Assembly: GCA_964421015.1 (NCBI GenBank)
Contig: CAYQUS010000001.1
Coordinates: forward strand, 300,726 to 364,725
From: an uncultured Planctomycetia bacterium
Lineage (GTDB): Bacteria > Omnitrophota > Gorgyraeia > Tantalellales > Tantalellaceae
Length of the DNA: 64,000 nt
Direction of reading: 5' to 3'
The position numbers and the translations under genes were made by a program. The notes below the pieces were generated by a model. It saw only the letters and a list, made by a program, of their open reading frames with translations. It was not told the origin of the DNA and did no database searches. Positions 1-52,335 of the stretch are shown in pieces (the stretch's first letter is position 1; each line of letters starts with the position of its first letter).

Positions 1-578
1 GGCCTGAACCAGAACATCGACCCCGCCGGAAAATCCAAGAGTGGAACCCCGAATGCGTCCATATTCATTCTCGAACACAGCTTTTCAACAGCCTGTCTGT
101 TCTCCTGCCATGGATCTTTCTCCAGTTCTGTAAAAAGATGCGGGACTATCTCGGGATAAACAACGCCGAGTTTCTCGTCACCGTCGAACATCCCAAGGAT
201 GTTCCTCACGATCTCTTCCGAACCGGAAAGATTGTACATAAGATAGTTTCCCCAGCCTTTCAGCCAGGGTACATGCGGCGTCTTCTTTGTGTGCACTTTA
301 AGCACAAGGTCGTATAACAAGAGGCTCTGGCTGAAATCGCATATGAACGGCGCGATGTCATAACCCCTGTTCTCCACTTCGCGCACTGTTACCCTCGCAC
401 GCGGGAGAACGCTCTTGAACACATCTTCCGTTCTTCTGCTCATACCTCTGGGGGTCGACACGTAAACATCAAGAGGCGAAGGAATATTTGATAACATATC
501 GGCAAGACCCTGGACCATATCCTGGTAAAAACAATGTGCCACTACCGCTATTTTGTATTTGCCGGCAATATCCCTCAT
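1..578 (-). CDS. Partial CDS (N-terminal part; C-terminus lies off the left edge). Rhamnan-synthesis-F (RgpF)-like glycosyltransferase family protein.
   Basis: ATG at 578 on the minus strand overlaps the upstream stop as ATGA. Manual translation MRDIAGKYKIAVVAHCFYQDMVQGLADML...VYVSTP has no stops to the window edge. The KIAVVAHCFYQD motif resembles the Rhamnan_synth_F family. Confidence 0.5.
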   Translation of the reverse strand, partial: MRDIAGKYKIAVVAHCFYQDMVQGLADMLSNIPSPLDVYVSTPRGMSRRTEDVFKSVLPRARVTVREVENRGYDIAPFICDFSQSLLLYDLVLKVHTKKTPHVPWLKGWGNYLMYNLSGSEEIVRNILGMFDGDEKLGVVYPEIVPHLFTELEKDPWQENRQAVEKLCSRMNMDAFGVPLLDFPAGSMFWFR

Positions 579-1321
579 CGAAGTATACCGCCTTCCTTTA
601 AAAGGCGCCTTGCCCTTGCGAGGTCCTCGGGAATGCCGATATCAATAAAAAAACCTTTGGAAACAAATACTTTAAGCCTTCCATTACGAAGCTTTTCCGG
701 AAAAACATCTTTTTCCAGAGAGAATGCCCCCTCCCTGGGAAAATCCTCGAGGTAATTCCTGGGAAAAACATAGCACCCGCTGTTTATAACCCCCGGACCG
801 CGTGAAATTTTCTCCTCAAATCCGGAGAGAAAGGCGCCCGACACATCGAGCCTCCCGTACCTTGAGGTGTCGGGCACTTCACAGCCGACTATAACTGGAA
901 TATGATCCTCTTTCCAGAAAGACTCTATCTCATCTATCTCTGCGTCAAAATAAGTATCTCCGTTAAAAACGAACACATGGTCCGAAGTACATCTTAACAT
1001 CGCCCCCTTCACCGCGCCGCCGGTGCCCAAAGGCTCCTTTTCTATCTCGTAAACCAACTCCAACTCACCGAAAGAATCCCCTATACGATGGATTATATTG
1101 TCGGCCATATGACCGACAGACAATACGACGCGCTTGAATCCTTTGCGCTCCAGGAGAGAAAGAAGGATCTCAAGGAACGGACGTCCATCCACAACCGCCA
1201 TGACTTTAGGCACATCGCTTATCATACTCCTAAGTCTGAGCCCCAGGCCCCCGGCAAGCACCACCGCTTCACGATGAGCGCCTTGTTTCACCGTCCCGGG
1301 AGATACTACATCACTTTCCAT
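575..1321 (-). CDS. Sugar-1-phosphate nucleotidyltransferase. Probably D-glycero-alpha-D-manno-heptose-1-phosphate guanylyltransferase (HddC-like).
   Basis: 248 aa. N-terminal VVLAGGLGLRLRS is the NTP_transferase G-loop (GGxGxRL). It lies next to a GHMP heptose-kinase-like gene, and a GT9 heptosyltransferase is in the locus. Confidence 0.65.
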   Translation of the reverse strand: MESDVVSPGTVKQGAHREAVVLAGGLGLRLRSMISDVPKVMAVVDGRPFLEILLSLLERKGFKRVVLSVGHMADNIIHRIGDSFGELELVYEIEKEPLGTGGAVKGAMLRCTSDHVFVFNGDTYFDAEIDEIESFWKEDHIPVIVGCEVPDTSRYGRLDVSGAFLSGFEEKISRGPGVINSGCYVFPRNYLEDFPREGAFSLEKDVFPEKLRNGRLKVFVSKGFFIDIGIPEDLARARRLLKEGGILR

Positions 1322-2337
1322 GCCTGCGCTCCGCTTTTCGTAAAATGAAAATTGCTCACTACTCCGCCGAACCCTTCTATGGTCTTTGTGACTTCCGCTC
1401 GCTTTTCGGGAGGAACAAAAAGAGCCATAAAACCGCCTCCGCCGGCTCCTGTAAGTTTTCCGGCCAGAGCCCCCGAGCGAAGAGCTCCTTTGTATATCTC
1501 CTCTATGCGAGGGTTAGACACCGACCTCGCTGAACGCTTCTTGTTCTCCCACCCGCTCTTCATGCACTCGACCATACCCGCAAAATCGCCTTTCAGAAGA
1601 CACTCTTTCATCACCAGCGCTTCCTGTTTCATCGCGTCCATGGCTTTTATCGTATCGGACAGACCTGACCTGACATTACTGCTCTGGTCGGAAATAATGC
1701 TAGCCGACTCCCGTGAAATGCCCGTATAAAAAAGAAGCATAGAAGCCTCAAGTTCAGAGATAACCCAATCCTTGACCCTCAGCGGATTAACGATAGCCCT
1801 GCCGTTATTATAAAATTCCATAAAATTAACCCCGCCGAACGCCGCGGAATACTGGTCCTGCCTCCCTCCCTGCAAACCGCAGTCGATCCGCTCTATCTTG
1901 AACGCGAGGCTCGCTATGCCATAATCGTCCAGAGGCAGGTTAAGGAATTCGGTAAATGCGCGGACCATGGCCACTACCAGTGTGGATGAAGACCCCAGCC
2001 CCGATCCGGGAGGCGCGTCGCAGTAAGTAGAAAGTTCGATGTGGAGCAGATTTCCTCCGTTCCAGCTACGGACCATCTCATTATACACAGCCCTGTGAAG
2101 GTCCATCCGTCCGGTCAGAGGAAACTCACCCCGCGCAGCCGGATCAAGGTCTTCTGTATCCTGGCCGATAATGGTAAACCGCACCTTAGATTCGTCCAGT
2201 GTCCTTATGCCCGCATAGACATACCTCGCGATAGCCGCATTGAGCACATAACCTCCGTAAACATCACAATACGGAGAAACATCCGTACCTCCGCCGGCAA
2301 GACCGAAACGAAGAGGAGCCCTTGCCCTGACTATCAT
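1306..2337 (-). CDS. GHMP-family sugar kinase. Probably D-glycero-alpha-D-manno-heptose-7-phosphate kinase (HddA-like).
   Basis: 343 aa. RAPLRFGLAGGGTD at the N-terminus matches HddA-type kinases. The GHMP ATP-binding loop PPGSGLGSSS and a C-terminal GAGGGGF are present. Confidence 0.7.
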   Translation of the reverse strand: MIVRARAPLRFGLAGGGTDVSPYCDVYGGYVLNAAIARYVYAGIRTLDESKVRFTIIGQDTEDLDPAARGEFPLTGRMDLHRAVYNEMVRSWNGGNLLHIELSTYCDAPPGSGLGSSSTLVVAMVRAFTEFLNLPLDDYGIASLAFKIERIDCGLQGGRQDQYSAAFGGVNFMEFYNNGRAIVNPLRVKDWVISELEASMLLFYTGISRESASIISDQSSNVRSGLSDTIKAMDAMKQEALVMKECLLKGDFAGMVECMKSGWENKKRSARSVSNPRIEEIYKGALRSGALAGKLTGAGGGGFMALFVPPEKRAEVTKTIEGFGGVVSNFHFTKSGAQAWKVM

Positions 2338-3143
2338 GCTGGCCCCCTTTCCCGGATGGGACCGTCGTCAACGAACGGTGGCTGCTCGGAATTCATCTTT
2401 ATTATAGCGGCTCGGTCCTTTACGAACTGGTTAAGATGAGCCCTTTCCTCAGGCGCGGGCTGAGACGAATTCTGAGCGTTGTACCTCCCACCTGCTGATA
2501 TTTCGCTCAAAGTCCTTTTCCTGACAACAAACTCTATGCCGCATTCCGCGACAGGCGTTACCGTCTGATCATACCGCGGCAGGTCATATCGATAAGTCGA
2601 CGAAAGTTTAATCAGCTTCACAAGTTCAGCTTCCTCACCGAGGCCGGCAATAAGGTCAACGACATTCCTGGACTTCACGCTCCATGACCTTTTCTTGAAT
2701 ATAGTAAAAGTCCATTTATGCTCAGTGTTAAAGGTGCTTGGGAACACACCCTGCTCATACATATCCTCATCCGGAACGGTCACGATGAGATACCCTCCGG
2801 GGACAACGACCCTCAGCCAGTTCCTCAGCGCTTCAAGCGGATCATCCAGATGTTCAAGACAATGGCTGCTGTGGACAAAATCGAAAGAAGCGTCGGGCAC
2901 TCCCGCGAGGAGCTTCGCGTCACCGTCTTCTTTATCCCAAGTCCTCACTTCCGTCATAAGACGGAAAAGCCCCCTGTACATCCCGAGTGGATCCGGACGT
3001 CCACCGATATCAAGCCCTTTCCCGGAAAAATAATGATTTATGAAATCCGGGTCATGCAGACGCCTTGAGATAGATTTACTGCATTCTCTCACGAAACACC
3101 TCCGCCTCTTTTTTTGAAAGACCTGAACACGAAATGCGGCCAT
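2334..3143 (-). CDS. Class I SAM-dependent methyltransferase.
   Basis: Motif I GLDIGGRPDP. FDFVHSSHCLEHLDDP and VVPGGYLIVTVP are typical of the Methyltransf_11/12 fold. The longest ORF starts at 3212 but overlaps the upstream gene by 124 nt. Start trimmed to the internal ATG at 3143. The exact start is uncertain. Confidence 0.55.
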   Translation of the reverse strand: MAAFRVQVFQKKRRRCFVRECSKSISRRLHDPDFINHYFSGKGLDIGGRPDPLGMYRGLFRLMTEVRTWDKEDGDAKLLAGVPDASFDFVHSSHCLEHLDDPLEALRNWLRVVVPGGYLIVTVPDEDMYEQGVFPSTFNTEHKWTFTIFKKRSWSVKSRNVVDLIAGLGEEAELVKLIKLSSTYRYDLPRYDQTVTPVAECGIEFVVRKRTLSEISAGGRYNAQNSSQPAPEERAHLNQFVKDRAAIIKMNSEQPPFVDDGPIRERGPA

Positions 3144-3868
3144 ATCTGCTCCGAGTTCAGGCCGTCGCGCCTTATGACCTTGTCCTCTACCACCTCGGTC
3201 GCCCCTATGCAACTGGAAACATTCGCGTCATCGAACACTATATACCCGCCTTCAGACATAAAGGGTTTTACGTTCTCATACGAGAAATCCACAGCCGAAC
3301 GTATATCGCAGTCAATATGAGCTAGCGCGACTTTGCCTGCCTCTGCCATCACGCCGGGCGCGGTTTCGCTGAAATCTCCCTTTACTATGATGAGATTACT
3401 CAGCCCAAGCCTCTCTACGTCCTTTCGTATCAACTTGGGATCCGCCCCCGAAAAATCTCCCCGATTATGCGCGTCTACCGCTTTGTCGGTCGCAGGCATG
3501 CCAGCGAAACTGTCCAGCGCAAAAACTGTCATCCCCGGATAAAGCTTACGGGCTATGTACGCCATAAAGATAGCATTACCGCATAGATACGCGCCGTATT
3601 CAACGATATGGCCGAACTCGCAGCGCCCCAGGAAGAACTTCATAATGAGAAACAGGTTCATGCGGTTAGCCTCGCTCATTACACTGCGGCTGCCGGCCGC
3701 GGCAAGAGCCTCCCGGTAAAGAGGATCGTCCAGCACCTTCTCCCGAAGGCCTCCGAACTGCAGCCCCCACCCTCGCTGGTACCCCTCGTAAACGTTCCTT
3801 CCTTTCCTTATCCCGGCTTGAAACCCTTTAAGTTCAGGTAAATATGTGTTCATGTTTTCTCCGTTCAC
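3089..3868 (-). CDS. TylF/MycF-family (macrocin-O-methyltransferase-like) SAM-dependent sugar O-methyltransferase.
   Basis: 259 aa. GHIVEYGAYLCGNAIFMA...FALDSFAGMP...IVKGDFSETAP...AHIDCDIRSAVDF...GGYIVFDD follows the TylF family layout. Confidence 0.65.
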   Translation of the reverse strand: MNGENMNTYLPELKGFQAGIRKGRNVYEGYQRGWGLQFGGLREKVLDDPLYREALAAAGSRSVMSEANRMNLFLIMKFFLGRCEFGHIVEYGAYLCGNAIFMAYIARKLYPGMTVFALDSFAGMPATDKAVDAHNRGDFSGADPKLIRKDVERLGLSNLIIVKGDFSETAPGVMAEAGKVALAHIDCDIRSAVDFSYENVKPFMSEGGYIVFDDANVSSCIGATEVVEDKVIRRDGLNSEQIWPHFVFRSFKKRGGGVS

Positions 3869-6800
3869 TACCTTTTGACCGCATGTATGTAGTGCTGGGC
3901 AGGGCCCAGGTGTCCGTATACTTCAGACCAGTAGAACTTCATGGAAACATCACGGAACCCTCCATTTTCCAGCATTTTAATAAGATCCCATCCGAAATCG
4001 GTGAAGACCAGAGAACCTTTACCGGTAAGAGGGTCGCCGTGGTAGATAGGCTCCGCGATGTGCTCTACCGCCCCTGAAACCAGACGGGCCCTCGAAAAAC
4101 TTTTATCCCTGTCCAGGTAGAGCGGCACTGTCATTATGAGACTCGCCTGCTTTTTCATAACCCTGCAAAGCTCCCTTACCGCGCTTAACGGATCAGGGAC
4201 ATGTTCAAGAACCTCATTGGTGACCACAATATCAAAAATCCCGTCCGTAAAACTCAGCCTGCAGATATCCTCGTGGCGTATACCTCCCACGACACTCCCG
4301 GGTGAGTATTTTCCTCCAAGATATTCGCTTCCTTCAAGTTGAAAATTAGGTAAAGCCTTTTCTGCCCACAGATAAAAAGAAGTCATCTTTTCCGTAAGAT
4401 ATGCTCTGCTTACCTTGTCACTCCTCCTAACCGCGATCTCCTGCAGGACCGACGCTATTGCCCTCTGCCTGTTATTCAGACCGCAGACCGGACAGACAAG
4501 CCTTTCCCTCCAGTTAGGTACCCATGTCCCGCCCGAAATAAAAGAACCGCACTCTTTATCTACCTTGAACCCCACATCCCGGCCGCATACTCTGCAATAC
4601 CCATTAAGCAGGAACCGATCGCTCCTTACATGCCGCATCATGACTTTCTTTTCCCTATTCCTTGAGATCATCTGTCCGTGAGAAACTGACCACTTATCAT
4701 ATTCTTCCTTAGTCTTTATTTCTTTCCAGTCCATCATGGCATCTTTACGCCTATCCGGCTCATACTTTGCGGTCTTTCGGAAATATGCAGCCATAGAGGG
4801 TATTCCTTTTTTCGCTTCGGGACTGTAAGACACCCCAGCGACATTGATAATATGCTTCATGGTATCCATTCCGGCTTCGAGGGAATAGTTCTTTTTTACG
4901 AACGCCAACCCACCCGTTGAAGAGGACTCCCAAAGCGCTTTATCCTCATAAAGTTCCGCTACGCGGGAAGCGAAAACATCCGGATCGTCGCCGACAAGAA
5001 CCCCGTCACCCGGAGAGAGCGACATCCCTTCGGCGCCTATGCTCGTGGAGACACAAGGTACCCCGTAGCTCAAGCTGGTCCCTATCTTTCCTTTTATACC
5101 AGCGCCGTAACGCAAAGGAACTACCGTGATACGGGCCCGGTCCATTTCCGAAGCCAGGTCCTCAACATAACCCGCGATATCTACCCCATGGCCCGCAAGA
5201 TCCCGCACATCATCAGGAATATGACTGCCGACTACGCGGAAAAACGTTCCAGGAAGTTTTTTCCTTACCAAAGGAAATATCTCTTTTACGAAATAAACAG
5301 CGGCATCCTTGTTCGGAAGATGCTGGAAACCGGCAACGAACAATATCCCGTCGCGACCGTCAAAGCTGCGCGTTCTTCCGGGAATATCTATTGCCCAGGG
5401 GAAAAGGCATATGCGGCTATCTTCCTGCTTCGAGTTCAGCTCTTCCTCGAGCATCGTCTTCTCAACGGTACTATGGACTATAACTGCATCCGATAAACGC
5501 ACGATAGCAAGCTCTTTTTCTTTCGTCTTTTTGGCTTTCCGCCGAAGGCTGTCAGACGATACAAGCTCAGCCTCTCTGCCTTCCCTAAGGTGATGAAGAT
5601 CTGAAGTATGCAAAATGTATTTAGCATCCGGACAGTGCCTTTTTATAGTCCGAATATTACGCTCGGCAGCCGTCATCCTGAAAGTTATTACAATATCATA
5701 CGTCTTACCGTATTTTGCCAGATGTTCTTCGAGCGAGGTGACGAACGGCGAATACAGGCACTCTATCCCCATCCGCTGCATATCACGGGTATACGGGGCC
5801 AGAAAAAGGAAATTATCTTCAGGCGCGAATGTAACCTTATACCCCATGCCGAGCAATATGCGCATGATATTAAGGGCCGTTATCGATCCGGCATCCTGGT
5901 CGGGTCTCGGCGTGCAGTGATCGATAACAAGCACCCGGCCACAAGAATACCTGTCTTTTTCAATAAAAGACCCGATCCCCGGAAGAGCGTGTTCGCGTAT
6001 ACGCTCTTTCCATTTTTCGTAAAGCCTGGCGGTATTTTCTTTCTGATAAGATTTAACCCCGCCGGACGTGTCTTTCCCGCATGTAACGCCTTCAAAATGA
6101 ACGACCCGCGAAAGAGGCTGGTAGATGACCCTTCGCCCCGCCTCCCTGACCCTGAAAGCAAGATCCGAATCCTCCCCATAGGCCGGAGAAAAACTTTCGT
6201 CAAAACCGCCAAGGCTGTCAAAAAGTTCCTTCTCTATCATGATCGACGCGCCGGAACAGTAATCCACATCCCTCATGTAGTTATACTCGGGACTTTCCGG
6301 GTCCTGCATCCTGCCGTAATTGCACCCCGAACCGTCCTGCCAAATGATCCCACCGGCCTCCTGCAGACGTCCGTCAGGATAGACCAGCTTTGATCCGACG
6401 AGTCCCGCGGAAGGGACACAGTTAAACGTCTCGACAAGCTCGTCAAGCCATCCGGGCCGGACTATCGTATCATTGTTGAGCATAACAAGAAGACGCCCCT
6501 TCGCGGCGCGAGCACCGGCGTTGCAGGATCTGACAAAACCCTCATTGCGGTCATTGCGGATCACCCTTATCCCTCCTATAGAGTTCAGCATTTCACGGGT
6601 AATATCCGAAGACGCATCGTCGACAACTATGACCTCAAAACTATAACCGGTCATGTGCGACATTAGGGACCTCAGGCACTGGTATGTATACTCGGCTTTA
6701 CCGAAAACCGGGATAATTACAGAAACTAAGGGTTTTTCCGGAAGAATAAGATCGAAAGGCTCTCCCGGTATGCCGGGAGAGCTGAATTTTTCAGGCAGGA

Positions 6801-7896
6801 ATGATCCGTAAAAAAAATAGGCCCCTGCCTGGCCATACTGTCCGGCCTCAGCGAAAAGACCGGGGAAAAGACCGTGAAGCTTCCTCTTTATCGCATGTCT
6901 GATCGGAGGAGAGAACGGAATAGCTTTATAAACAGCCTTCCCCAATAGCCGCAAGGATCCACCTGTTATCCGCGGAACAGAACGACACGTCTCCCCACAG
7001 TTACATAAAAACCGAGCCAGACGCCATGACCTGGAATTTAAAAGACTATTAAATTCCTCTCTAACTCCAAAAATCTCTTCTTTTGCCATTTCTAATTGAC
7101 CGGTTGTCTCGGATAAAAGATCAGATATCCTTTTGTTTTCCGATTTAAGCGCTTCCGACGCGGAACGCTCGTCGGACAATACTTTTTCCATAATACCGAA
7201 TGACGCTGCGTTACCCAGAACCTTGTAAGAATCTCTTATTTTCCCGGCGGTCGCGGCATCTAAAGAGAAAAGGTCCGGCAGATCCCTGGCAGCGTTTCTA
7301 CCCACGGCCAGAACACCCAAACCGCTTGAGTGATAAAATTCAAAACTCGGATATTCCGTTTTAAGCTTTGACCAGTATTCCCTGACACCAAAACCTGCCT
7401 TGTCCTCCGCTGTATCATGAAATAGCACTATACCTCGGGCGCTAAGTTTAGGCTTCCAGGTCTCAAAGTCATGACTGACAGCCTCAATGGTGTGCAGTCC
7501 GTCAATATGAAGAAGATCTATGGATCCGTCCTGGAATTCCGTTGCGGCGGCATCGAACGTCGTCCTCATAAGCCTGGAAAAGCTGCCGTAAGGAACATCA
7601 TGGCGGCGCATCAGGTCCTCAAATACCTCCTCCCCGTAATGACCGGAATGCTCATCCCCCTTCCATGTATCGACCGCGTAACATTTTGCCTCAAGGCCGT
7701 TCCTCTTTACTGCTTCGCAAAATGCCAGGTACGAGTCTCCCGCATAAGTACCCAGCTCAACAAAACACCGGGGATTGAATATCTTTATAAGGGAAAAAGC
7801 GAACGGGATATGCCCCTGCCATGACATTATCCTGCCGGGATCAACCTTCAAGTATTTCGTAAGATCCGAAAATGATATATCGAGAAACCTGTTCAT
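3868..7896 (-). CDS. 1342-aa multidomain glycan synthase. Order: N-terminal class I SAM methyltransferase, coiled coil, GT2 glycosyltransferase, GT4 (GT-B) glycosyltransferase, Cys4 zinc ribbon, C-terminal class I SAM methyltransferase.
   Basis: Single 4029-nt ORF. N-terminus: FVELGTYAGDSYLAF...LLHIDGLHTIEAV...VLFHDT (CmcI/TylF-like methyltransferase). Middle: VSVIIPVFGKAEYTYQCLRSL...EVIVVDDASSD...DSDLAFRVREAGRRV (GT2). Then VLVIDHCTPRPDQDAGS plus EGMSLSPGDGVLVGDD...GIKGKIGTSLSYGVPCVST (GT4). Then CRVCGRD...CPVCGLNN. C-terminus: FDIVVTNEVLEHVPDP...ASLIMTVP (Methyltransf_11-like). Confidence 0.75.
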   Translation of the reverse strand: MNRFLDISFSDLTKYLKVDPGRIMSWQGHIPFAFSLIKIFNPRCFVELGTYAGDSYLAFCEAVKRNGLEAKCYAVDTWKGDEHSGHYGEEVFEDLMRRHDVPYGSFSRLMRTTFDAAATEFQDGSIDLLHIDGLHTIEAVSHDFETWKPKLSARGIVLFHDTAEDKAGFGVREYWSKLKTEYPSFEFYHSSGLGVLAVGRNAARDLPDLFSLDAATAGKIRDSYKVLGNAASFGIMEKVLSDERSASEALKSENKRISDLLSETTGQLEMAKEEIFGVREEFNSLLNSRSWRLARFLCNCGETCRSVPRITGGSLRLLGKAVYKAIPFSPPIRHAIKRKLHGLFPGLFAEAGQYGQAGAYFFYGSFLPEKFSSPGIPGEPFDLILPEKPLVSVIIPVFGKAEYTYQCLRSLMSHMTGYSFEVIVVDDASSDITREMLNSIGGIRVIRNDRNEGFVRSCNAGARAAKGRLLVMLNNDTIVRPGWLDELVETFNCVPSAGLVGSKLVYPDGRLQEAGGIIWQDGSGCNYGRMQDPESPEYNYMRDVDYCSGASIMIEKELFDSLGGFDESFSPAYGEDSDLAFRVREAGRRVIYQPLSRVVHFEGVTCGKDTSGGVKSYQKENTARLYEKWKERIREHALPGIGSFIEKDRYSCGRVLVIDHCTPRPDQDAGSITALNIMRILLGMGYKVTFAPEDNFLFLAPYTRDMQRMGIECLYSPFVTSLEEHLAKYGKTYDIVITFRMTAAERNIRTIKRHCPDAKYILHTSDLHHLREGREAELVSSDSLRRKAKKTKEKELAIVRLSDAVIVHSTVEKTMLEEELNSKQEDSRICLFPWAIDIPGRTRSFDGRDGILFVAGFQHLPNKDAAVYFVKEIFPLVRKKLPGTFFRVVGSHIPDDVRDLAGHGVDIAGYVEDLASEMDRARITVVPLRYGAGIKGKIGTSLSYGVPCVSTSIGAEGMSLSPGDGVLVGDDPDVFASRVAELYEDKALWESSSTGGLAFVKKNYSLEAGMDTMKHIINVAGVSYSPEAKKGIPSMAAYFRKTAKYEPDRRKDAMMDWKEIKTKEEYDKWSVSHGQMISRNREKKVMMRHVRSDRFLLNGYCRVCGRDVGFKVDKECGSFISGGTWVPNWRERLVCPVCGLNNRQRAIASVLQEIAVRRSDKVSRAYLTEKMTSFYLWAEKALPNFQLEGSEYLGGKYSPGSVVGGIRHEDICRLSFTDGIFDIVVTNEVLEHVPDPLSAVRELCRVMKKQASLIMTVPLYLDRDKSFSRARLVSGAVEHIAEPIYHGDPLTGKGSLVFTDFGWDLIKMLENGGFRDVSMKFYWSEVYGHLGPAQHYIHAVKR

Positions 7897-7899
7897 CCC

Positions 7900-8514
7900 C
7901 TATTTGATCCCTCTCGTCAAAACAGCATTCTGCACTTTCAGCTTTACCGTATCCATAAAGTTACCTACTATTCCCCTGTCTGGCTTTCTCGCTACAAGCA
8001 CTGAATCATGCCACCAATCGCTCCCGTCAGAATAACCTTTATCATCCCAGAAAGTCACGGCCTCTATGACCTCGAGCCCCGCGAAATCCGCCATAGCCCT
8101 CATTCCATCCGGGTAGAACCTCCAGCAATCTACCGGGTAACGATGTTCCGGACCGCTTGAAGGCGCTATGATACAAACAAACCCCCCTGGCCTCAAAACC
8201 CTGGCGATTTCGGCCATGGTTATCCAAAAATAACGTATATGCTCGAAAGCCTGTCCCGAAACTACCACATCAACCGAGCTCGACGCTATGCTCCGCCAGG
8301 AATAAGGGTCAGAAAGCACTACATCCACATTCTTCCCGGAAGCCATATCGACCCCTGTATAGTTCCACTTCTCCCGTGCCAAAATATCACGATAGCTGCC
8401 GTTAACATCCTGACTGCCAAGATCAAATATGCTAAGACGTCGTCCTGCCATAGGCGCCAGGTAACGATCTCTGAACAATATCATTTTCTCGATTGAACTT
8501 CTATGCATGATCAC
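7900..8514 (-). CDS. Class I SAM-dependent methyltransferase.
   Basis: 204 aa. IFDLGSQDVNGSY...VDVVVSGQAFEHIRYF...LRPGGFVCIIAPS. The stop overlaps the upstream start as ATGA. Confidence 0.6.
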   Translation of the reverse strand: MIMHRSSIEKMILFRDRYLAPMAGRRLSIFDLGSQDVNGSYRDILAREKWNYTGVDMASGKNVDVVLSDPYSWRSIASSSVDVVVSGQAFEHIRYFWITMAEIARVLRPGGFVCIIAPSSGPEHRYPVDCWRFYPDGMRAMADFAGLEVIEAVTFWDDKGYSDGSDWWHDSVLVARKPDRGIVGNFMDTVKLKVQNAVLTRGIK

Positions 8515-9497
8515 CCCTTACCCCGGACCTGACATCCGGATATATCCCTCCGGACGAAAGCGTCCATCCCCGGCACATCATAAGTGAAATACGAGGGAAG
8601 TCCGTTCGCCATACAAAGCTTGCACACCGCGCTCGACTTTCTCTTCCGCTGGATCTCATCGAGAGCATCATCAAGATAATTCCCTATGACGAACTTACTT
8701 TCATCATAAACAGCGCAGCACAAGAGCGCATCTCCTCTGCAATTTAAAGTTATCTGTTCATCAAGGAGCCTGCACCGCGATATGGCTTTTCCTCTCATCT
8801 CGGCAACCGCTTTTTTCGGAGGCATGATAAGGTCTCCCACCAGACGCTCATCCTCTTCGGTAATTTCAGACAACGGCAATATACCGCAGATGGCCATAAC
8901 CTTTTCCAACGGCAGGAATAGCGCGTCCACAGTCTGTAAAAGCACCTCATTCTCGCGACAATATTCCGCTATTACAGCCTCATCGGCAACATTAGAACGA
9001 TAGCGGTGAAACGCCACCGATATCCTGGTCGAAGGACATATGCCAGTTTTTTCCTTCAAAAGAAAATCCAGATTATCCCTCAAAAGCCCCAGATCTCCGC
9101 CCCTGTGAGTCCTTTCGTATGTTTCTTTCCTGAACCCTGACAACGAGACGCGTAAAATATCGGGACCCGCTGCGATAAGTTTTTTCAGAACATTCTTAGG
9201 AACGTTCAGATTAGTGCTTATGGAACATTTTATCCCGCAGGATCTCACTACCCTTACCATATCATCTATCTCGGGATGAAGAAGCGGTTCCGACCAGTTA
9301 AAAAGCCCTACCCCGGTAATTTTACATTCCTTTGCGGCTTTGGCAAGTATCCGATGAAGAGTATCCGGAGACATCATCCCTTTAGCGTTATCGCCACGCT
9401 GGCTGTTCCCTGACGGACATGAGGGGCACCGTAGATTACATCCTGAAACGACATCGACATAAAAGTGCATTTTGGGTTTTTCAGCAACCATTACCAC
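8511..9497 (-). CDS. Radical SAM domain protein with a Cys-rich C-terminal SPASM/twitch-like region.
   Basis: 328 aa. FYVDVVSGCNLRCPSCP is the canonical CxxxCxxC [4Fe-4S] motif. The C-terminus has CRLLDEQITLNCRGDALLCC and CKLCMANG cysteine clusters. Confidence 0.7.
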   Translation of the reverse strand: MVMVAEKPKMHFYVDVVSGCNLRCPSCPSGNSQRGDNAKGMMSPDTLHRILAKAAKECKITGVGLFNWSEPLLHPEIDDMVRVVRSCGIKCSISTNLNVPKNVLKKLIAAGPDILRVSLSGFRKETYERTHRGGDLGLLRDNLDFLLKEKTGICPSTRISVAFHRYRSNVADEAVIAEYCRENEVLLQTVDALFLPLEKVMAICGILPLSEITEEDERLVGDLIMPPKKAVAEMRGKAISRCRLLDEQITLNCRGDALLCCAVYDESKFVIGNYLDDALDEIQRKRKSSAVCKLCMANGLPSYFTYDVPGMDAFVRRDISGCQVRGKG

Positions 9498-9503: not shown

Positions 9504-10277
9504 TCAGGCCCGCGTTATCCAGGCATCGGGCCAATATGTCAGCTCTTCGACAACAAACGCCTCCCCGTACATAGCACCGGGGCGCTCTATTTTAAATTCA
9601 GGATGTGTACGGACAAATTCACGCGCCGCTTCAGCCGGATTATCCGATAGCCACTCTTTCCTGCCGTTCGGCGTATCCGCCAGGCGTTCCATTATCCCAT
9701 CTGCGGCCACAATGTATGATCCGGAGCCTACAAGTGTAGCGTAGATCTCCAGCTCTTTCGACACATGATTCCTGGAATGGTCGCTGTCCAGGAAAACAAA
9801 GACCTTTTCGCCGGCCGAGATGTTTTCCTTCACTTTCCTTACGGTATCATCTGACACAGAAGAACCCTCAATAAGTGTGATAAGATCAGAGAATGGGCTC
9901 TTCCCTATGCTGCGGCGCACTTCCTGAGGTATAGTGATATCAATAGAAATAACTTTCCCCTTCCCCATAAGACGACAAATCGAAGCAAAAAAAACGGCGC
10001 TTCCTCCCCGACTCACCCCGGTCTCAATAATAACATCAGGTTTTATAGTGAACACAGATTCCTGGAGCCTCATAAGATCCTCGGGAAACTGCCATATCGG
10101 AAAACCACACCAGGAAAACGACTGCCAATGCAAACTGTTCCACTCCTGTTTTATCCACAGGTCTGACAATGATCTAAAACCCTCAGGAGAATATAACCCG
10201 AACCTTTTCTCTTCCCCGCTCGAGCTCACTGTTGTTACCGTTTTGTCCGCATCGTCTATAATAATTCTCATAAGCAC
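9504..10277 (-). CDS. CmcI-family (cephalosporin-hydroxylase-like) SAM-dependent O-methyltransferase, of the kind that O-methylates rhamnosyl or sugar residues.
   Basis: 257 aa. WQFPEDL...KPDVIIETGVSRGGSAVFFA...KVFVFLDSDHS is the CmcI family pattern. Confidence 0.6.
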   Translation of the reverse strand: MLMRIIIDDADKTVTTVSSSGEEKRFGLYSPEGFRSLSDLWIKQEWNSLHWQSFSWCGFPIWQFPEDLMRLQESVFTIKPDVIIETGVSRGGSAVFFASICRLMGKGKVISIDITIPQEVRRSIGKSPFSDLITLIEGSSVSDDTVRKVKENISAGEKVFVFLDSDHSRNHVSKELEIYATLVGSGSYIVAADGIMERLADTPNGRKEWLSDNPAEAAREFVRTHPEFKIERPGAMYGEAFVVEELTYWPDAWITRA

Positions 10278-10285: not shown

Positions 10286-11047
10286 CTAACGCGTCGCCAC
10301 TAAAGTGAATAGTTCTATCTTTTTGTTCATCGGCACAAAAAAGTGTTTAGAAACTGAGAGATCGAACTTGTTAAACCCTCTGAGCTCCAACAAGTTCTCA
10401 AACACCTTAGGCCCTATCCACCACCATGTCCATGCCCCAAAACTTTTGGCCCTTTCTCTTTTGGGCATGAATTCCATCAGTGGCCGCTTCAGATCCATAT
10501 CTGGAGGCAGTCGGTCAGTGATTATTATCGCTTCCTTAGCCCTGTCGGCAGCGAATTGGATAGCGCCCACGGGATTACGTGTGTGCAGAAGCACGGAACC
10601 GAACGTAACAACATCGAAATCGCCCAGCTCTTCCGGAATATCGTATATCGATCCGAAACTGAGTTCGAGTTTTGACCCTAAACGGTTACGGCAATAATAC
10701 CACCCATTATTAAGCCTGCCCATGGTCGAACGCATAGTCCTTTCGACTTCGCGATAATCCTGATCCGAGGTCGGCATAATATCCCAGCTATGAGACGGAG
10801 AAAGATCATAGGGAGTAACTACTGCCCCTTCCTTTTCCATCCAGAAAGCATGACTACCCGTGGCCGTTCCGATCTCAAGAACAGTCTTTCCCTTAAAATC
10901 AAAACTGCCATGGTATTCGCGTTCAGTATATCTGAAATCCCATTGCCCTGGGGTAGGCTCCTCTCCGGGAAGATCTATAACATGAAAAAACGCACATTCT
11001 TCTCTTTTTGGATCCTGATCCACCTTTTGATAACCGACCTTATCCAT
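10286..11047 (-). CDS. Class I SAM-dependent methyltransferase.
   Basis: 253 aa. Motif I KTVLEIGTATGSHAF, then FDVVTFGSVLLHTRNP. Confidence 0.6.
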   Translation of the reverse strand: MDKVGYQKVDQDPKREECAFFHVIDLPGEEPTPGQWDFRYTEREYHGSFDFKGKTVLEIGTATGSHAFWMEKEGAVVTPYDLSPSHSWDIMPTSDQDYREVERTMRSTMGRLNNGWYYCRNRLGSKLELSFGSIYDIPEELGDFDVVTFGSVLLHTRNPVGAIQFAADRAKEAIIITDRLPPDMDLKRPLMEFMPKRERAKSFGAWTWWWIGPKVFENLLELRGFNKFDLSVSKHFFVPMNKKIELFTLVATR

Positions 11048-11084: not shown

Positions 11085-12110
11085 TCATTTCCAATCGATC
11101 CCCCAGGATCCCGGATCGCTATTGCGCAATTCTTCTATTTCCCTGAGGCCTTTAAACTCCGGTTCCGCGAAAAATCTTTCCATATCACTTTTCCACCTAT
11201 CAGGATCATATAAGAAAGGCTTATCCGAAAAGAACGTCATGGGGAAATCCCCGACCATCGCCTTAAGATCCCGATTGTATTTTACATGATCTTTCCTTAT
11301 CCGGTTTGAAAAGTCTTCCGAAATATAAAAAGCTCCTCTAAACCGGCTATCCGACAATGCAAGCCTTTTCAAGGCTGCGTAGTACTCCCTTTTATGGGAA
11401 GTAACCCTGTTAAGCGCTAACTTAAAGACCAAAAGATTCCCCGAAATTGTCGGATTACTGTCCGTAGGATTTTCGTCAGGAGCAAGATCCAACCCGAGCC
11501 TCTCGATAAAATCTCCAACAACTCCGCTTTTCTTTTCCCTCGCGTTCTCATAGCTGATAAACTCCGTCTCGTCCGCGAACTTCTCCCAGAATTTTATGAA
11601 CGCCTCAAGACCCACCCGTCGGAAAATAGAGCAATATTCCGCGAAGGAACAGAAAGTCCCGGTGGCCTGAATTTTTTGGGCCCATGCGCTCCGTGTTGAA
11701 TCTAGAAATTCGCGCAGATAACAGATAACTTTAATATTGTACGGCTCCCTTGAGAAAATTTTTGCTAGACGAGGAGCTTTACCAAAAAATCTTCTAAGTC
11801 TGTCAGCTTTTGTAAGGTTCTGAAATCCTTCCGAGCTGACTATAATGCGCCGGAAAGCCGCAACCTCTTCATCGAACCTCGCTTTCAGATCCGATATCTC
11901 CTCCTCACTGATGGAACTTTTTTGGTGACAGGCTGCAGATATCTCTCCTTGCTGAGGAGAAAATAACCTTGTCCCTGTCCTTGGGTAACATACACCCTGG
12001 CGCGCCAGAACTTCGCGGTTTCCAGTAAGAAAAGCCTGTATAGCGCTTGAGCCTGTTTTAGCTCTGCCAATATGAAGATATAACAACTTTTTAGACATGT
12101 CCAAACCCAT
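11085..12110 (-). CDS. Putative sulfotransferase-fold protein (P-loop-like PAPS-binding motif). Function uncertain.
   Basis: 341 aa. N-terminal LYLHIGRAKTGSSAIQ resembles the sulfotransferase 5-prime-PSB motif. It sits directly downstream of two clear sulfotransferase genes. Confidence 0.4.
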   Translation of the reverse strand: MGLDMSKKLLYLHIGRAKTGSSAIQAFLTGNREVLARQGVCYPRTGTRLFSPQQGEISAACHQKSSISEEEISDLKARFDEEVAAFRRIIVSSEGFQNLTKADRLRRFFGKAPRLAKIFSREPYNIKVICYLREFLDSTRSAWAQKIQATGTFCSFAEYCSIFRRVGLEAFIKFWEKFADETEFISYENAREKKSGVVGDFIERLGLDLAPDENPTDSNPTISGNLLVFKLALNRVTSHKREYYAALKRLALSDSRFRGAFYISEDFSNRIRKDHVKYNRDLKAMVGDFPMTFFSDKPFLYDPDRWKSDMERFFAEPEFKGLREIEELRNSDPGSWGIDWK

Positions 12111-13118: not shown

Positions 13119-13122
13119 ATTC

Positions 13123-21745: not shown

Positions 21746-22651
21746 TTAAAAATACCCTTCTTTCTTCTTCTGTTCCATTGATGAGTCCCGGTCATGGTCT
21801 ATAAGGCGGGTTATTCTCTCTGAATCTGTAGCGGTCATTATCTCCTTTATGATTTCCGGGACAGTAGACGCCTTTGACAGTATCGCTCCCGTGCATGGGT
21901 AACAACCAAGTGTCCGGAACCGGCAAACGACCTTTTTGGGTCTTTCTCCTTTCTTCAGAGGAACCGGGCCGTCTAAAGGTATCAGCCGCCCTTCCCTCAC
22001 TATCATCTCCCTTTTCTTAGCAAAATACATCGGCACTACGGGTATCTTTTCCGCATATATGTATTCCCAAACGTCAAGTTCTGTCCAGTTGGAAAGCGGG
22101 AAAACCCTTATGCTCTGTCCTTTGTCAAGCATGGTATTGTACACATTCCACAACTCAGGGCGCTGGTTTTTAGGATCCCACTGTCCGAATTCATCGCGGA
22201 AAGAAAAGACCCTTTCCTTAGCCCTGGATTTTTCTTCCTCACGCCTTGCCCCTCCGAATGCCGCGTCATGCTTACCTTCTTTCAGCGCGGCCAGTAGGGC
22301 TTGTGTCTTCAGGATCTCACAGCACTTTACGGTGCCTAATTCCCAGGGGTTCACTTGCCCCCCGGAAATTTGGGGAGGCAAATAAACTTTAAGCTCAACA
22401 CCCGACTTTTTTACAAATTTATCACGGAAACGGTACATTTCCTTAAACTTCATGGAGGTATCAACATGCAGGAGCGGGAAAGGTATTTTACCGGGGTAAA
22501 AAGCCTTCTGAGCTAGACGTACCATTACAGAGGAATCCTTACCGACAGAATAAAGCATAACGGGCCGCTCGAAGGATGCCGCCACTTCTCGAATTATCTG
22601 TATGCTTTCCGCTTCAAGTAACTCTAGATTATTGATCCTGTACTTTTGCAT
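21746..22651 (-). CDS. cysD: Sulfate adenylyltransferase subunit 2 (CysD, NodP-like).
   Basis: 301 aa. PP-loop SVGKDSSV plus PAPS_reduct-family conservation. It is immediately upstream of cysNC with zero gap. Confidence 0.9.
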
Positions 22652-44974: not shown

Positions 44975-45004
44975 GGCAAAAAATCCCTCTCCAAAACAAC
45001 CTTT

Positions 45005-46882: not shown

Positions 46883-46933
46883 TATTTATCTCCCGGGCAA
46901 AAATACCGTGTGGGGCAACTTTTGCCAACAGAA

Positions 46934-52322: not shown

Positions 52323-52335
52323 TTTGATACCTCCG

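What the first reader, a model, noticed from the sequence alone, without database searches (positions are those of the whole stretch)
3868..7896. A 1342-aa single-polypeptide synthase with two methyltransferase domains flanking GT2 and GT4 domains and a coiled coil.
The domain order is methyltransferase, coiled coil, GT2, GT4, Cys4 ribbon, methyltransferase. This resembles the ABC-transporter-dependent O-polysaccharide systems (WbdA polymerase and WbdD methylating terminator in E. coli O8/O9a). In those systems multidomain GTs polymerise a glycan and a terminal methylation caps the chain, with a coiled coil acting as a molecular ruler. Here both functions appear fused in one protein. An MsbA/PglK-type ABC exporter is encoded about 6 kb away in the same array.
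Basis: partly seen in the sequence, partly recalled or inferred. Interest (0 to 1): 0.65.

Follow-up and report, generated by a model that had tools for sequence, protein, structure and literature searches.

The report
Multi-domain methylating glycan synthase with stalk
This intact 1342-residue gene encodes a bacterial surface-polysaccharide synthase that joins two sugar-adding and two methyl-adding modules on one chain, an uncharacterised but widespread variant of a known type of O-antigen assembly enzyme, here paired with an unusual exporter.

Summary
Window 3868-7896 (-) is one intact 1342-aa ORF. Its order is Methyltransf_24 O-methyltransferase, a 73-residue heptad helix, GT2, a GT4-like GT-B domain, an invariant Cys4 ribbon, then a class I methyltransferase. 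More than 45 relatives share this architecture, so it is not a frameshift fusion.

The logic matches ABC-transporter-dependent glycan assembly, with a modifying enzyme at the far end of a coiled coil. In relatives the stalk is the only length-variable element (64-305 aa). The distal module is swappable. More distant relatives sit beside Wzt proteins carrying the Wzt_C cap-binding module.

Fusion of polymerase and terminator is already known (WbbB, Klebsiella O7 ORF6, WsaE). No sequence kinship to WbdD or WbbB was detected.

The closest relatives have short Wzt proteins without a cap-binding module. This window and locus L087 instead carry a HepA/MsbA-type fused ABC exporter at the Wzm/Wzt position.

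The conserved cassette adds four stand-alone methyltransferases, sulfotransferases and HddA/HddC-like GDP-heptose genes. In-chain methylation therefore remains a serious rival to capping.

Verdict: a new variant of a known kind, of moderate interest.

The parts
3868..7896 (-). Whole ORF: 1342-aa multi-module glycan synthase (called 'BIG' in the report text)
7282..7836 (-). Residues 21-205: N-terminal Methyltransf_24 O-methyltransferase domain. It has the motif I sequence VELGTYAGDS. H130, D132, H135, D143, H160 and D161 are invariant.
   Evidence: Pfam. Invariant columns. AF2. Foldseek top hit is M. hassiacum MeT1 (6g80), followed by cation-dependent O-methyltransferases.
7039..7257 (-). Residues 214-286: single long alpha-helix with heptad periodicity, read as a coiled-coil stalk. 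Sequence conservation is poor. Its length varies widely among homologues.
6745..7038 (-). Residues 287-384: basic amphipathic linker with the conserved S-x-S-W-x-x-T-x-P-x-R motif. It is the candidate peripheral membrane or partner-binding region. The protein has no transmembrane helix.
   Evidence: Consensus. Hydrophobic-moment scan (strongest amphipathic 18-mers at 292-322; K+R 14 against D+E 6). The function is inferred.
5977..6744 (-). Residues 385-640: GT2 (GT-A) glycosyltransferase module. The VVDDxS, NNDT and EDxDL acidic motifs are nearly invariant.
4837..5949 (-). Residues 650-1020: GT-B glycosyltransferase module (Pfam Glyco_trans_1_4, GT4-like). It has the conserved motif RYGAGIKGK...GxPxVST..GAEGM. 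It follows GT2 after a fixed 10-residue gap.
   Evidence: (TIGR03087-like)
4477..4614 (-). Residues 1095-1140: Cys4 zinc-ribbon-like element (C1101, C1104, C1135, C1138), followed by the conserved N-x-R-x-R motif
3871..4476 (-). Residues 1141-1342: C-terminal class I methyltransferase core. Motif I is non-canonical (Y-L-T-E-K-M-T in place of GxGxG). E1169, S1190, E1191, E1231 and H1232 are invariant.
   Evidence: Pfam. Invariants. AF2. Foldseek (PMT, AtmM, RebM, CgnL). Family size.
7900..8514 (-). Upstream 204-aa Methyltransf_11 gene, three nucleotides from the synthase start. It is conserved next to the synthase in all related loci (56-63% identity).
8511..9497 (-). Radical SAM/SPASM gene lying between the methyltransferase genes. 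It is conserved in L087 (45% identity).
9504..10277 (-). RMNT_CmcI-type sugar O-methyltransferase, conserved in the cassette (56-65% identity)
10286..11047 (-). 253-aa Methyltransf_23 gene (83% identical in L087)
11085..12110 (-). 341-aa protein with no Pfam, NCBIfam or PDB match. It is conserved in L087 (54% identity).
12159..14244 (-). Two Sulfotransfer_3 genes (12159-13118 and 13123-14244)
14153..15991 (-). Fused TMD-NBD ABC exporter. Its best NCBIfam match is HepA_fam (430 bits), then MsbA (381 bits), both below the curated cut-offs. It occupies the position that Wzm/Wzt hold in related loci.
3089..3868 (-). Downstream TylF-type O-methyltransferase whose start overlaps the synthase stop codon. 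In homologue P0040 it is fused to the synthase C-terminus.
2334..3212 (-). Methyltransf_11/23 gene. The listed TTG start is probably too far upstream, because homologues are about 245 aa.
575..2337 (-). HddA-like heptose-7-phosphate kinase (1306-2337) and HddC-like heptose-1-phosphate guanylyltransferase (575-1321). These are candidate GDP-D-glycero-alpha-D-manno-heptose supply genes and are co-conserved with the synthase.
   Evidence: (376 and 169 bits, below the curated cut-offs)

Best explanation
The protein is a cytoplasmic, peripherally membrane-associated, multi-module synthase of an ABC-transporter-dependent surface glycan of the O-antigen type.

Proposed mechanism:
- The GT2 (GT-A) and GT4-like (GT-B) modules, joined by a fixed 10-residue link, alternately extend a lipid-linked chain.
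- The donors probably include GDP-heptose made by the co-conserved HddA/HddC-like genes.
- The C-terminal zinc-ribbon methyltransferase sits beside the GT modules. Together with four neighbouring stand-alone methyltransferases and two sulfotransferases it decorates the glycan.
- The N-terminal O-methyltransferase is held about 10 nm away on a coiled-coil stalk. It methylates the non-reducing end once the chain is long enough, capping it. This is the WbdD / WbbB / KpO7-ORF6 logic.
- The finished glycan is exported here by a HepA/MsbA-type fused ABC exporter rather than by Wzm/Wzt, with no cap-reading CBM.

Shown: the domain identities, the conservation of catalytic-type motifs, the helix and its natural length variability, module swapping, and the synteny.

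Inferred: polymerase activity, the donor sugars, which methyltransferase caps and which modifies in-chain, membrane association, and the exporter's substrate.
For: Domains and folds.

Catalytic-type motifs nearly invariant in 38-49 homologues.

Coiled coil:
- A 73-residue helix with a significant heptad pattern.
- The distance from the methyltransferase to the SW motif ranges from 64 to 305 aa in 86 homologues. By contrast, the GT2-to-GT4 gap is 10 aa in 85 of 86, and the GT4-to-ZnMT gap is about 70-77 aa in most.
- Long stalks contain repeated matches to the stalk HMM.

The distal module is exchanged on a constant chassis. It is Methyltransf_24 in most, canonical Methyltransf_11/25 in P0034 and P0041, and Sulfotransfer_3 in P0065.

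Among the related loci where a Wzm/Wzt pair could be located, 14 of 25 have a long Wzt (416-497 aa as called). All 8 long Wzt proteins tested match Pfam Wzt_C, 6 of them above the gathering score. One is L001, which encodes a full-length 44%-identical relative next to HddA/HddC homologues.

The conserved cassette RMNT_CmcI - MT11 - synthase - TylF - MT - HddA - (GmhA-like SIS) - HddC is found with Wzm/Wzt in L081-L085. L086 has the same cassette, but its upstream region is not covered.

WecA-type initiating transferase genes and small GT2 genes lie nearby in related loci, as expected for an initiation - adaptor - polymerase scheme.

The exporter link recurs. L087 is syntenic: exporter 57% identical, then sulfotransferase, the 341-aa protein, MT253 at 83%, RMNT, radical SAM, MT204, and a synthase of the same architecture. 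More distant exporter relatives also lie among sulfotransferase, methyltransferase and GT genes.

[quoted passage not shown] WsaE is an N-terminal cap methyltransferase plus two GT domains (PMC2943079).
Against: - Neither the exporter here nor the Wzt proteins of the five closest Wzm/Wzt loci (about 232-258 aa, no Wzt_C) carry a cap-binding CBM. PMC11231755 states that all characterised terminated systems have one.
- The cassette has six methyltransferase domains and two sulfotransferases, which suggests extensive in-chain decoration. No result here assigns capping to the N-terminal domain specifically.
- There is no sequence-level similarity to WbdD or WbbB.
- The C-terminal methyltransferase lacks the Gly-rich SAM loop, so its activity is not assured.
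- The GT-B module lacks the canonical GT4 E-x7-E glutamates. This was read by eye from the alignments.
- The stalk in this protein is at the short end of the family range (81 aa against a median of 118).
- No glycan structure or biochemistry exists for any family member, and the organism is unknown.
Confidence: 0.5

Rival explanations
1. The protein is a synthase of a polymethylated glycan with no capping role. Both built-in methyltransferases, like the four stand-alone ones, methylate every repeat unit as it is made, comparable to the alternating glycosylation and methylation of mycobacterial methylmannose polysaccharides. The coiled coil serves only for oligomerisation or scaffolding. Chain length is set by the balance between exporter and synthase, as in Klebsiella O2a.
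For: - The conserved cassette has six methyltransferase domains.
- Transporters in the window and its closest relatives have no CBM.
- The closest solved structure to the N-terminal domain is MeT1 of the methylmannose-polysaccharide pathway.
- According to PMC11231755, transporters that lack a CBM (Klebsiella O1/O2) work without a chain-length-determining terminator.
Against: - A pure oligomerisation domain would not be expected to vary from 64 to 305 aa while every other spacing stays fixed.
- The distal module is swapped for chemically different enzymes, including a sulfotransferase, on an unchanged GT chassis.
- Relatives with the same N-terminal module are linked to Wzt_C CBMs, which read chain termini.
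Confidence: 0.33
2. The protein is not a polymerase. It adds a defined, methylated di- or oligosaccharide (an adaptor, a side branch or a core extension). Another enzyme in the array builds the polymer, for example the RgpF-like protein or the neighbouring GT2 and GT4 genes.
For: - Further GT genes flank the cassette: GT2 at 16041-17072, GT4 at 17090-18175, and a partial RgpF gene at the window start.
- Polymerase activity cannot be read from sequence.
Against: - Two GT modules combined with a coiled coil and a distal modifying enzyme is described as the marker of the polymerase-terminator strategy (PMC11231755).
- The synthase is the constant centre of the cassette, while the flanking GT genes vary between loci.
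Confidence: 0.12
3. The long ORF is an assembly or frameshift artefact that fuses separate methyltransferase and glycosyltransferase genes.
For: None was found.
Against: - 48 of 121 homologues from independent assemblies and phyla have the same four-domain order.
- About 30 relatives are 50-54% identical over 100% of the length.
- Inter-domain spacings are fixed.
Confidence: 0.01

Closest known systems
Klebsiella pneumoniae O7 ORF6 (methyltransferase-kinase terminator, coiled coil, two GT2 polymerase modules; PMC11231755)
   Same: It is a single polypeptide. An N-terminal SAM methyltransferase sits at the distal end of a coiled coil and two glycosyltransferase modules lie C-terminal to it. It acts in an ABC-transporter-dependent lipid-linked glycan pathway. 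Its orthologues also show modular variation.
   Different: The window protein has no kinase or Ig-like CBM domain. It has GT2 plus a GT-B module rather than two GT2 modules. It has an extra C-terminal zinc-ribbon methyltransferase. Its N-terminal methyltransferase is of the Methyltransf_24/COMT-like type, and CgnL appears only among hits to the C-terminal domain. The transporter has no CBM.
WbbB of K. pneumoniae O12 / Raoultella terrigena (GT99 beta-Kdo terminator, coiled coil, GT102 and GT103 polymerase modules)
   Same: It is an all-in-one terminator, ruler and polymerase protein. One polymerase module is GT-B-like and the other is GT-A-like (PMC11231755).
   Different: Its terminator is a Kdo transferase, not a methyltransferase. 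Export requires a CBM-bearing Wzt. Sequence and profile searches of PDB returned no WbbB chain.
E. coli O8/O9a WbdD (terminator on a coiled coil) with WbdA (dual-GT4 mannan polymerase)
   Same: It uses terminal methylation or phospho-methylation, a coiled-coil molecular ruler and a membrane-proximal polymerase (PMC3482155, PMC11231755).
   Different: The functions lie on two proteins. WbdD anchors through its C-terminus. Its methyltransferase belongs to a different family. Wzt carries a CBM specific for the cap. No WbdD chain was hit in PDB searches.
WsaE of Geobacillus stearothermophilus NRS 2004/3a (S-layer glycan; PMC2943079)
   Same: It has an N-terminal O-methyltransferase domain plus two glycosyltransferase domains in one protein. 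The methyl cap is proposed to terminate the chain. Its gene lies next to wzm and wzt.
   Different: It comes from a Gram-positive S-layer glycan pathway and makes a rhamnan. It has no second methyltransferase. Homology to the window protein was not tested here.
Mycobacterium hassiacum MeT1 (PDB 6g80, 6g7d), 1-O-methyltransferase of methylmannose polysaccharide
   Same: It is the best structural match to the N-terminal domain (Foldseek E 3e-9, TM 0.64 on the target, 18% identity). It is a sugar O-methyltransferase of the cation-dependent COMT-like class.
   Different: It is a stand-alone enzyme that acts on the reducing end of a cytoplasmic oligosaccharide. The relationship is at fold level only.
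HepA-family, MsbA and PglK type fused ABC exporters
   Same: The window exporter has the ABC_membrane plus ABC_tran architecture. Its best NCBIfam matches are HepA_fam (430 bits), MsbA (381 bits) and PglK (187 bits).
   Different: All scores are below the curated cut-offs, so it is not an equivalog of any of these families. Its clade is embedded in loci rich in sulfotransferase and methyltransferase genes.

Membership tests
Coiled-coil terminator/polymerase machinery of ABC-transporter-dependent glycan assembly (WbdD+WbdA, WbbB, KpO7 ORF6) | Two or more glycosyltransferase modules that polymerise the repeat unit, either on the coiled-coil protein or recruited by it | tested here: inconclusive
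   Two GT modules are present and their acidic and basic motifs are nearly invariant. Polymerising activity cannot be shown in silico.
Coiled-coil terminator/polymerase machinery of ABC-transporter-dependent glycan assembly (WbdD+WbdA, WbbB, KpO7 ORF6) | An extended coiled coil separates the terminator from the polymerase modules | tested here: met
   There is a 73-residue helix. Its heptad pattern is reached by 1 of 5000 shuffles. Among homologues it is the only length-variable segment, at 64-305 aa. The oligomeric state was not tested.
Coiled-coil terminator/polymerase machinery of ABC-transporter-dependent glycan assembly (WbdD+WbdA, WbbB, KpO7 ORF6) | [quoted passage not shown] | tested here: inconclusive
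   An O-methyltransferase-fold domain sits at the distal end and is swappable in relatives. Whether it caps the chain is not testable with these tools.
Coiled-coil terminator/polymerase machinery of ABC-transporter-dependent glycan assembly (WbdD+WbdA, WbbB, KpO7 ORF6) | A Wzm/Wzt (ABC-2 type) transporter encoded with the system | tested here: not met
   No ABC2_membrane gene or Wzm/Wzt homologue occurs anywhere in the 64-kb window. A fused HepA/MsbA-type exporter takes that position. The feature is met in related loci L001 and L081-L085. The rest of the genome was not available.
Coiled-coil terminator/polymerase machinery of ABC-transporter-dependent glycan assembly (WbdD+WbdA, WbbB, KpO7 ORF6) | A carbohydrate-binding module on the transporter NBD that recognises the terminal cap | tested here: not met
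   The window exporter has only ABC_membrane and ABC_tran. Wzt proteins in L081-L085 are about 232-258 aa; L081 and L085 were scanned and have no Wzt_C. Wzt_C is present in more distant relatives (L001, L009, L010, L019, L030, L065).
Coiled-coil terminator/polymerase machinery of ABC-transporter-dependent glycan assembly (WbdD+WbdA, WbbB, KpO7 ORF6) | Sequence homology to a characterised member | tested here: not met
   phmmer and a 38-sequence profile against all PDB chains returned only generic GT2 and class I methyltransferase hits. No WbdD or WbbB chain appeared among the matches listed (all 30 at E<=0.01; the best 60 of 85 at E<=0.1). WbdA, KpO7 ORF6 and WsaE could not be compared.
Pfam Methyltransf_24 / cation-dependent class I O-methyltransferases (N-terminal domain) | Rossmann fold with a Gly-rich SAM motif I and an acidic residue at the end of strand 2 | tested here: met
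   The Pfam score is 91.8 bits against a cut-off of 26.3. The motif VELGTYAGDS and D76 are invariant. The AF2 fold and Foldseek hits to SAM-bound O-methyltransferases agree.
Pfam Methyltransf_24 / cation-dependent class I O-methyltransferases (N-terminal domain) | A divalent-cation site formed by Asp/Asn residues | tested here: inconclusive
   H130, D132, H135, D143, H160 and D161 are invariant, which is compatible with a metal site. No structural superposition was possible with the tools.
Class I SAM methyltransferase, Methyltransf_11-like (C-terminal domain) | Class I fold with SAM-binding motifs | tested here: inconclusive
   The fold is confirmed (pLDDT 89; Foldseek probability 1.0 to many SAM methyltransferases). 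Pfam matches only profile positions 46-94 of 95. The GxGxG loop is replaced by Y-L-x-E-(K/Q)-x-T. The acidic residue at the end of strand 2 (E1191) and the E1231/H1232 pair are invariant. SAM binding is likely but not shown.
CAZy GT2 (GT-A, inverting) | GT-A domain with DxD-type acidic motifs | tested here: met
   The Pfam Glycos_transf_2 score is 95.8 bits. VVDDxS, NNDT and EDxDL are at least 90% conserved. PDB hits include chondroitin polymerase K4CP and ppGalNAc-transferases.
CAZy GT4 (GT-B, retaining) | GT-B fold with the E-x7-E signature | tested here: inconclusive
   Pfam Glyco_trans_1_4 scores 70.5 bits and the Glyco_transf_4 N-half is weak. The signature region reads GAGIKGKIGTSLSYGVP, without the two glutamates (read). 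No PDB GT-B chain is among the listed matches. CAZy family assignment was not possible.
MsbA / HepA / PglK equivalogs (the neighbouring exporter) | Score above the NCBIfam curated cut-off | tested here: not met
   HepA_fam scores 430 against a cut-off of 725. MsbA scores 381 against 602. PglK scores 187 against 1000.

The most novel reading that the evidence does not exclude
In this lineage, a fused type-IV ABC exporter (HepA/MsbA/PglK-like) has replaced the Wzm/Wzt transporter of a classical coiled-coil polymerase-terminator system, and the cap-reading CBM has been lost. If so, a long lipid-linked polymer made by a ruler-type synthase is exported by a mechanistically different transporter, without the known quality-control checkpoint. 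The product would be a heavily O-methylated and sulfated heptose-containing glycan, a chemistry not described for O-antigens.
Probability: 0.25. Interest if true: 0.6.

Novelty: new variant of a known kind. Interest (0 to 1): 0.42.

Why it matters
Coiled-coil polymerase-terminator proteins are the model for how bacteria measure the length of surface polysaccharides. All characterised cases couple a terminal cap to a cap-reading module on a Wzm/Wzt transporter.

This family is large, spans several phyla and is entirely uncharacterised. It offers three natural experiments:
- Stalk length varies five-fold on an otherwise constant enzyme.
- The distal modifying module is exchanged: two types of methyltransferase and a sulfotransferase.
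- Within syntenic cassettes, the transporter is a Wzt with a CBM, a Wzt without one, or a fused MsbA/HepA-type exporter.

Together these could show whether ruler-type chain-length control works without cap-gated export, and whether type-IV exporters can handle such polymers.

The predicted methylated and sulfated heptose-containing glycan would also be chemically unusual.

The protein itself is not a new principle.

Tried and rejected
- Exact-sequence look-up of the window protein's contig found nothing on record. The cluster look-up gave no name or taxon. The source organism therefore stays unknown. It was not found in the one-genome-per-species collection either: no locus close to 100% identity.
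- Mann et al. 2019 (Glycobiology), the key bioinformatic survey of terminators and CBMs, is not held.
- I tested whether the neighbouring 292-aa methyltransferase is a paralogue of the C-terminal zinc-ribbon domain. Only the generic motif around 'LEH' aligns, so this was rejected.
- I tested whether the 341-aa unknown protein could be a detached CBM. It has no PDB, Pfam or NCBIfam match.
- The 218-221-aa unknown protein seen in L081, L083 and L084 is absent from the window and from L082 and L085. It is therefore not a conserved CBM substitute.
- Literature searches for methylated-heptose O-antigens with this gene set, and for characterised proteins with an N-terminal methyltransferase joined to GT domains beyond those cited, found nothing relevant.
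- The frameshift or fusion artefact was rejected on conservation of the architecture.
- The idea that the exporter is the housekeeping MsbA was rejected. It scores below the cut-off, and its clade is syntenic with glycan-modification genes in four other contigs.
- My crude heptad score also flags short segments inside the GT domains. It is therefore used only together with the AF2 helix and the shuffle test.

Full report
**1. The observation**

Window 3868-7896 on the minus strand is a single ORF of 1342 codons with an ATG start and no internal stop.

Pfam finds four domains:
- Methyltransf_24 at residues 46-162 (E 6e-26).
- GT2 at 392-603.
- The C-terminal half of a GT-B/GT4-type domain (Glyco_trans_1_4) at 850-985, with a weak N-half at 718-836.
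- The second half of a Methyltransf_11 profile at 1206-1254.

AlphaFold2 was run on residues 1-390 with a 38-sequence alignment (mean pLDDT 84). It gives a Rossmann domain up to about residue 200, then one uninterrupted helix at 214-286. Residues 233-288 show a/d heptad periodicity that 1 of 5000 shuffles reaches.

AlphaFold2 on residues 1021-1342 (pLDDT 89) gives beta-hairpins that carry C1101, C1104, C1135 and C1138, followed by a Rossmann fold. The four cysteines are invariant in 38 homologues.

The ABC exporter it mentioned lies at 14153-15991 on the same strand.

**2. It is a real, conserved gene**

A search of 5.8 billion proteins returned 2540 hits. About 30 of them are 50-54% identical over 100% of the length.

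I built HMMs for each domain and scanned the 121 retrieved homologues:
- 48 have the order MT24 - GT2 - GT4 - ZnMT.
- 37 lack the C-terminal methyltransferase.
- About 16 have a different N-terminal methyltransferase.

The fusion is therefore not a frameshift artefact.

**3. What the parts are**

N-terminal domain. Its closest solved structures are M. hassiacum MeT1, a sugar 1-O-methyltransferase, followed by cation-dependent COMT/CCoAOMT-type O-methyltransferases. Motif I (VELGTYAGDS), D76 and a cluster of His/Asp residues are invariant.

C-terminal domain. It matches class I methyltransferases, including the sugar O-methyltransferases AtmM and RebM, and CgnL. Its Gly-rich loop is replaced by Y-L-x-E-(K/Q)-x-T. 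The strand-2 acidic residue E1191 and the pair E1231/H1232 are invariant. SAM binding is likely but not proven.

This zinc-ribbon methyltransferase is a widespread mobile module. It forms 642 clusters at E<=1e-30. It occurs as stand-alone proteins of about 290 aa, and in one to three copies within proteins of 1000-2800 aa.

GT modules. GT2 keeps its acidic motifs. The GT-B module is well conserved but lacks the canonical E-x7-E glutamates.

Membrane association. There is no transmembrane helix. The strongest basic amphipathic segments of the whole protein lie at 292-322, just after the stalk. Peripheral membrane binding at that point is an inference.

Relation to characterised proteins. No solved structure is a close relative. 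Neither the sequence nor a family profile retrieves WbdD or WbbB.

**4. Context**

The whole 64-kb window is a glycan-biosynthesis array, almost entirely on one strand.

Around the synthase, in the order of transcription, lie:
- CysD and CysNC.
- A GT-C gene, a GT4 gene and a GT2 gene.
- The fused ABC exporter.
- Two sulfotransferases.
- A 341-aa unknown protein.
- A methyltransferase, an RMNT_CmcI methyltransferase, a radical SAM/SPASM gene and another methyltransferase.
- The synthase.
- A TylF methyltransferase and another methyltransferase.
- HddA-like and HddC-like genes.
- A partial RgpF gene.

Six loci encoding full-length relatives were examined. They show a conserved core: RMNT_CmcI - MT11 (about 202 aa) - synthase - TylF - MT (about 245 aa) - HddA - (GmhA-type SIS) - HddC.

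HddA, TylF and the small methyltransferase are more conserved (62-70% identity in most loci) than the synthase itself (46-54%).

HddA and HddC are the two steps specific to GDP-D-glycero-alpha-D-manno-heptose synthesis. The NCBIfam matches are below the curated cut-offs. A heptose donor is therefore a reasonable inference, not a demonstration.

One homologue (P0040) has TylF fused to the synthase C-terminus.

**5. Evidence bearing on the ruler/terminator idea**

According to the literature, the terminator in all characterised systems sits at the distal end of a coiled coil, and the polymerase modules may be on the same polypeptide. Examples are WbbB and K. pneumoniae O7 ORF6 (PMC11231755). WsaE is an N-terminal cap methyltransferase plus two GT domains (PMC2943079). 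"Both functions fused in one protein" is therefore a known design.

Three new observations support that logic here:
- In 86 homologues, the distance from the end of the N-terminal methyltransferase to the conserved SxSWxxTxPxR motif ranges from 64 to 305 aa (median 118; 81 in this protein). The GT2-to-GT4 gap is 10 aa in 85 of 86. The GT4-to-ZnMT gap is about 70-77 aa in most. Long stalks contain repeated matches to the stalk HMM.
- On the same GT2-GT4-ZnMT chassis, the distal module is Methyltransf_24, canonical Methyltransf_11/25 (P0034, P0041) or a sulfotransferase (P0065; 29.9 bits against a cut-off of 27).
- Among the related loci where a Wzm/Wzt pair could be located, 14 of 25 have a long Wzt. 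All 8 tested match Pfam Wzt_C, the cap-binding CBM, and 6 of them score above the gathering threshold. One is L001, which encodes a full-length 44%-identical relative next to HddA/HddC homologues.

**6. Evidence against, and what is different**

PMC11231755 states that in all terminated examples a CBM is attached to Wzt. The five closest Wzm/Wzt loci (L081-L085) have Wzt proteins of about 232-258 aa. L081 and L085 were scanned and have no Wzt_C.

The window has no Wzm or Wzt at all. Instead, a fused TMD-NBD exporter sits exactly where Wzm/Wzt sit in the related cassettes. Its best NCBIfam matches are HepA_fam (430 bits), MsbA (381 bits) and PglK (187 bits), all below the cut-offs.

This is not a one-off:
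- Contig L087 carries a 57%-identical exporter, followed by a sulfotransferase, the 341-aa unknown protein (54%), the same methyltransferase (83%), RMNT_CmcI, radical SAM, MT204 and a synthase of identical architecture (45%).
- More distant members of the exporter clade also lie among sulfotransferase, methyltransferase and GT genes.

The system therefore looks like a derived variant that lost the CBM checkpoint and, in one sub-lineage, exchanged the transporter class.

With six methyltransferase domains and two sulfotransferases in the cassette, in-chain decoration is certain to be part of the chemistry. Which methyltransferase caps the chain, if any does, cannot be decided in silico.

**7. 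Most likely mechanism**

The overall class (confidence about 0.8) is a multi-module synthase of an ABC-exporter-dependent, lipid-linked surface glycan.

For the specific model (confidence about 0.5):
- GT2 and the GT-B module alternately extend the chain near the membrane.
- The adjacent C-terminal methyltransferase and the stand-alone methyltransferases and sulfotransferases decorate it.
- The N-terminal O-methyltransferase, held on a stalk of about 10 nm (73 residues at 1.5 Å per residue, an inference), caps the non-reducing end.
- The fused exporter moves the product across the inner membrane.

Rivals are:
- A non-capping synthase of a polymethylated glycan (0.33).
- A non-polymerising oligosaccharide-adding enzyme (0.12).
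- An artefact (0.01).

**8. Novelty and verdict**

The protein is an uncharacterised member of a known functional class, with no detectable sequence kinship to the characterised members.

The variant features are a second methyltransferase bearing a zinc ribbon, the absence of a CBM, and a type-IV exporter in place of Wzm/Wzt.

A specialist would find it useful rather than startling. Its main value is as a set of natural experiments on ruler length, terminator chemistry and exporter coupling.

Interest is 0.42. It is a new variant of a known kind.

Noticed in passing
window 14153-15991 (-); L087 10001-11857; L088; L089; L090: A clade of fused TMD-NBD ABC exporters (HepA/MsbA-like, below all curated cut-offs) recurs next to sulfotransferase, methyltransferase and GT genes. 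In the window and in L087 it occupies the slot that Wzm/Wzt hold in otherwise syntenic cassettes. This looks like a non-orthologous transporter replacement.
   Followed up: partly
window 18319-19809, 30718-32601, 32603-34258, 59967-61655 (PMT_2); 38114-39415 and 23849-25276 (GT87-like); 25283-25975, 29003-29752, 35772-36485, 39397-40167 (small GT2 genes): At least four GT-C (PMT_2) genes and two GT87-like genes are interleaved with small GT2 genes of 230-256 aa. This resembles the three-component polyprenyl-phosphate-sugar, flippase and GT-C systems for periplasmic glycan decoration (title of PMC11127046). That is an unusually high number for one locus.
   Followed up: no
window 43511-58295 (-): A nonulosonic-acid (pseudaminic/legionaminic-type) cluster. 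It contains PseB-like Polysacc_synt_2, two DegT aminotransferases, a GNAT, a methyltransferase, a formyltransferase-like gene, NeuB, a CMP-transferase and a GT28-C-like gene, plus a Wzx-type flippase at 43511-44974. A second, Wzx-dependent glycan pathway therefore shares the array.
   Followed up: no
window 19793-22651 (-) and 12159-14244 (-): CysNC and CysD (PAPS synthesis) are embedded in the glycan array along with two sulfotransferases. The same pairing occurs in L087, and sulfotransferases are present in most related loci. This suggests a sulfated glycan.
   Followed up: partly
window 8511-9497 (-); L087 15721-16611; larger radical SAM genes in L082, L084 and L089: A radical SAM/SPASM gene is inserted among the methyltransferase genes. 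Related loci carry other radical SAM genes, some with a B12-binding domain. They may carry out C-methylation or another radical sugar modification. The function is unknown.
   Followed up: no
window 11085-12110 (-); L087 12883-13908: A 341-aa protein with no Pfam, NCBIfam or PDB match is conserved at 54% identity in the exporter-type cassette only. I could not test whether it substitutes for a CBM or acts as an accessory to the exporter.
   Followed up: partly
P0065, P0040, P0051 (homologues): Natural module shuffling in the family. P0065 has a sulfotransferase in place of the N-terminal methyltransferase. P0040 has the neighbouring TylF methyltransferase fused at its C-terminus. P0051 (1843 aa, apparently the L001 relative) has two C-terminal zinc-ribbon methyltransferase copies.
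   Followed up: partly
window 1-~578 (-): A partial ORF running off the window start is an RgpF-family (rhamnan synthesis protein F) gene (PF05045, 121 bits). This hints that rhamnose may also be a component of the glycan.
   Followed up: partly
whole window: Nearly every gene is on the minus strand; the 475-aa ORF at 23849-25276 is the only plus-strand ORF treated as a gene. GC skew is negative in every 2-kb bin (-0.04 to -0.23). GC content drifts from about 0.50-0.52 at the synthase end to about 0.42-0.48 further along.
   Followed up: no
window 22711-23802 (-): A GT9 (heptosyltransferase-family) gene lies within the array. Together with LptF/G next to the cassette in L086 and a Wzy_C (O-antigen ligase family) gene in L087, it suggests a diderm host and an LPS-linked product. 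No initiating phosphoglycosyl transferase was seen in the window.
   Followed up: no
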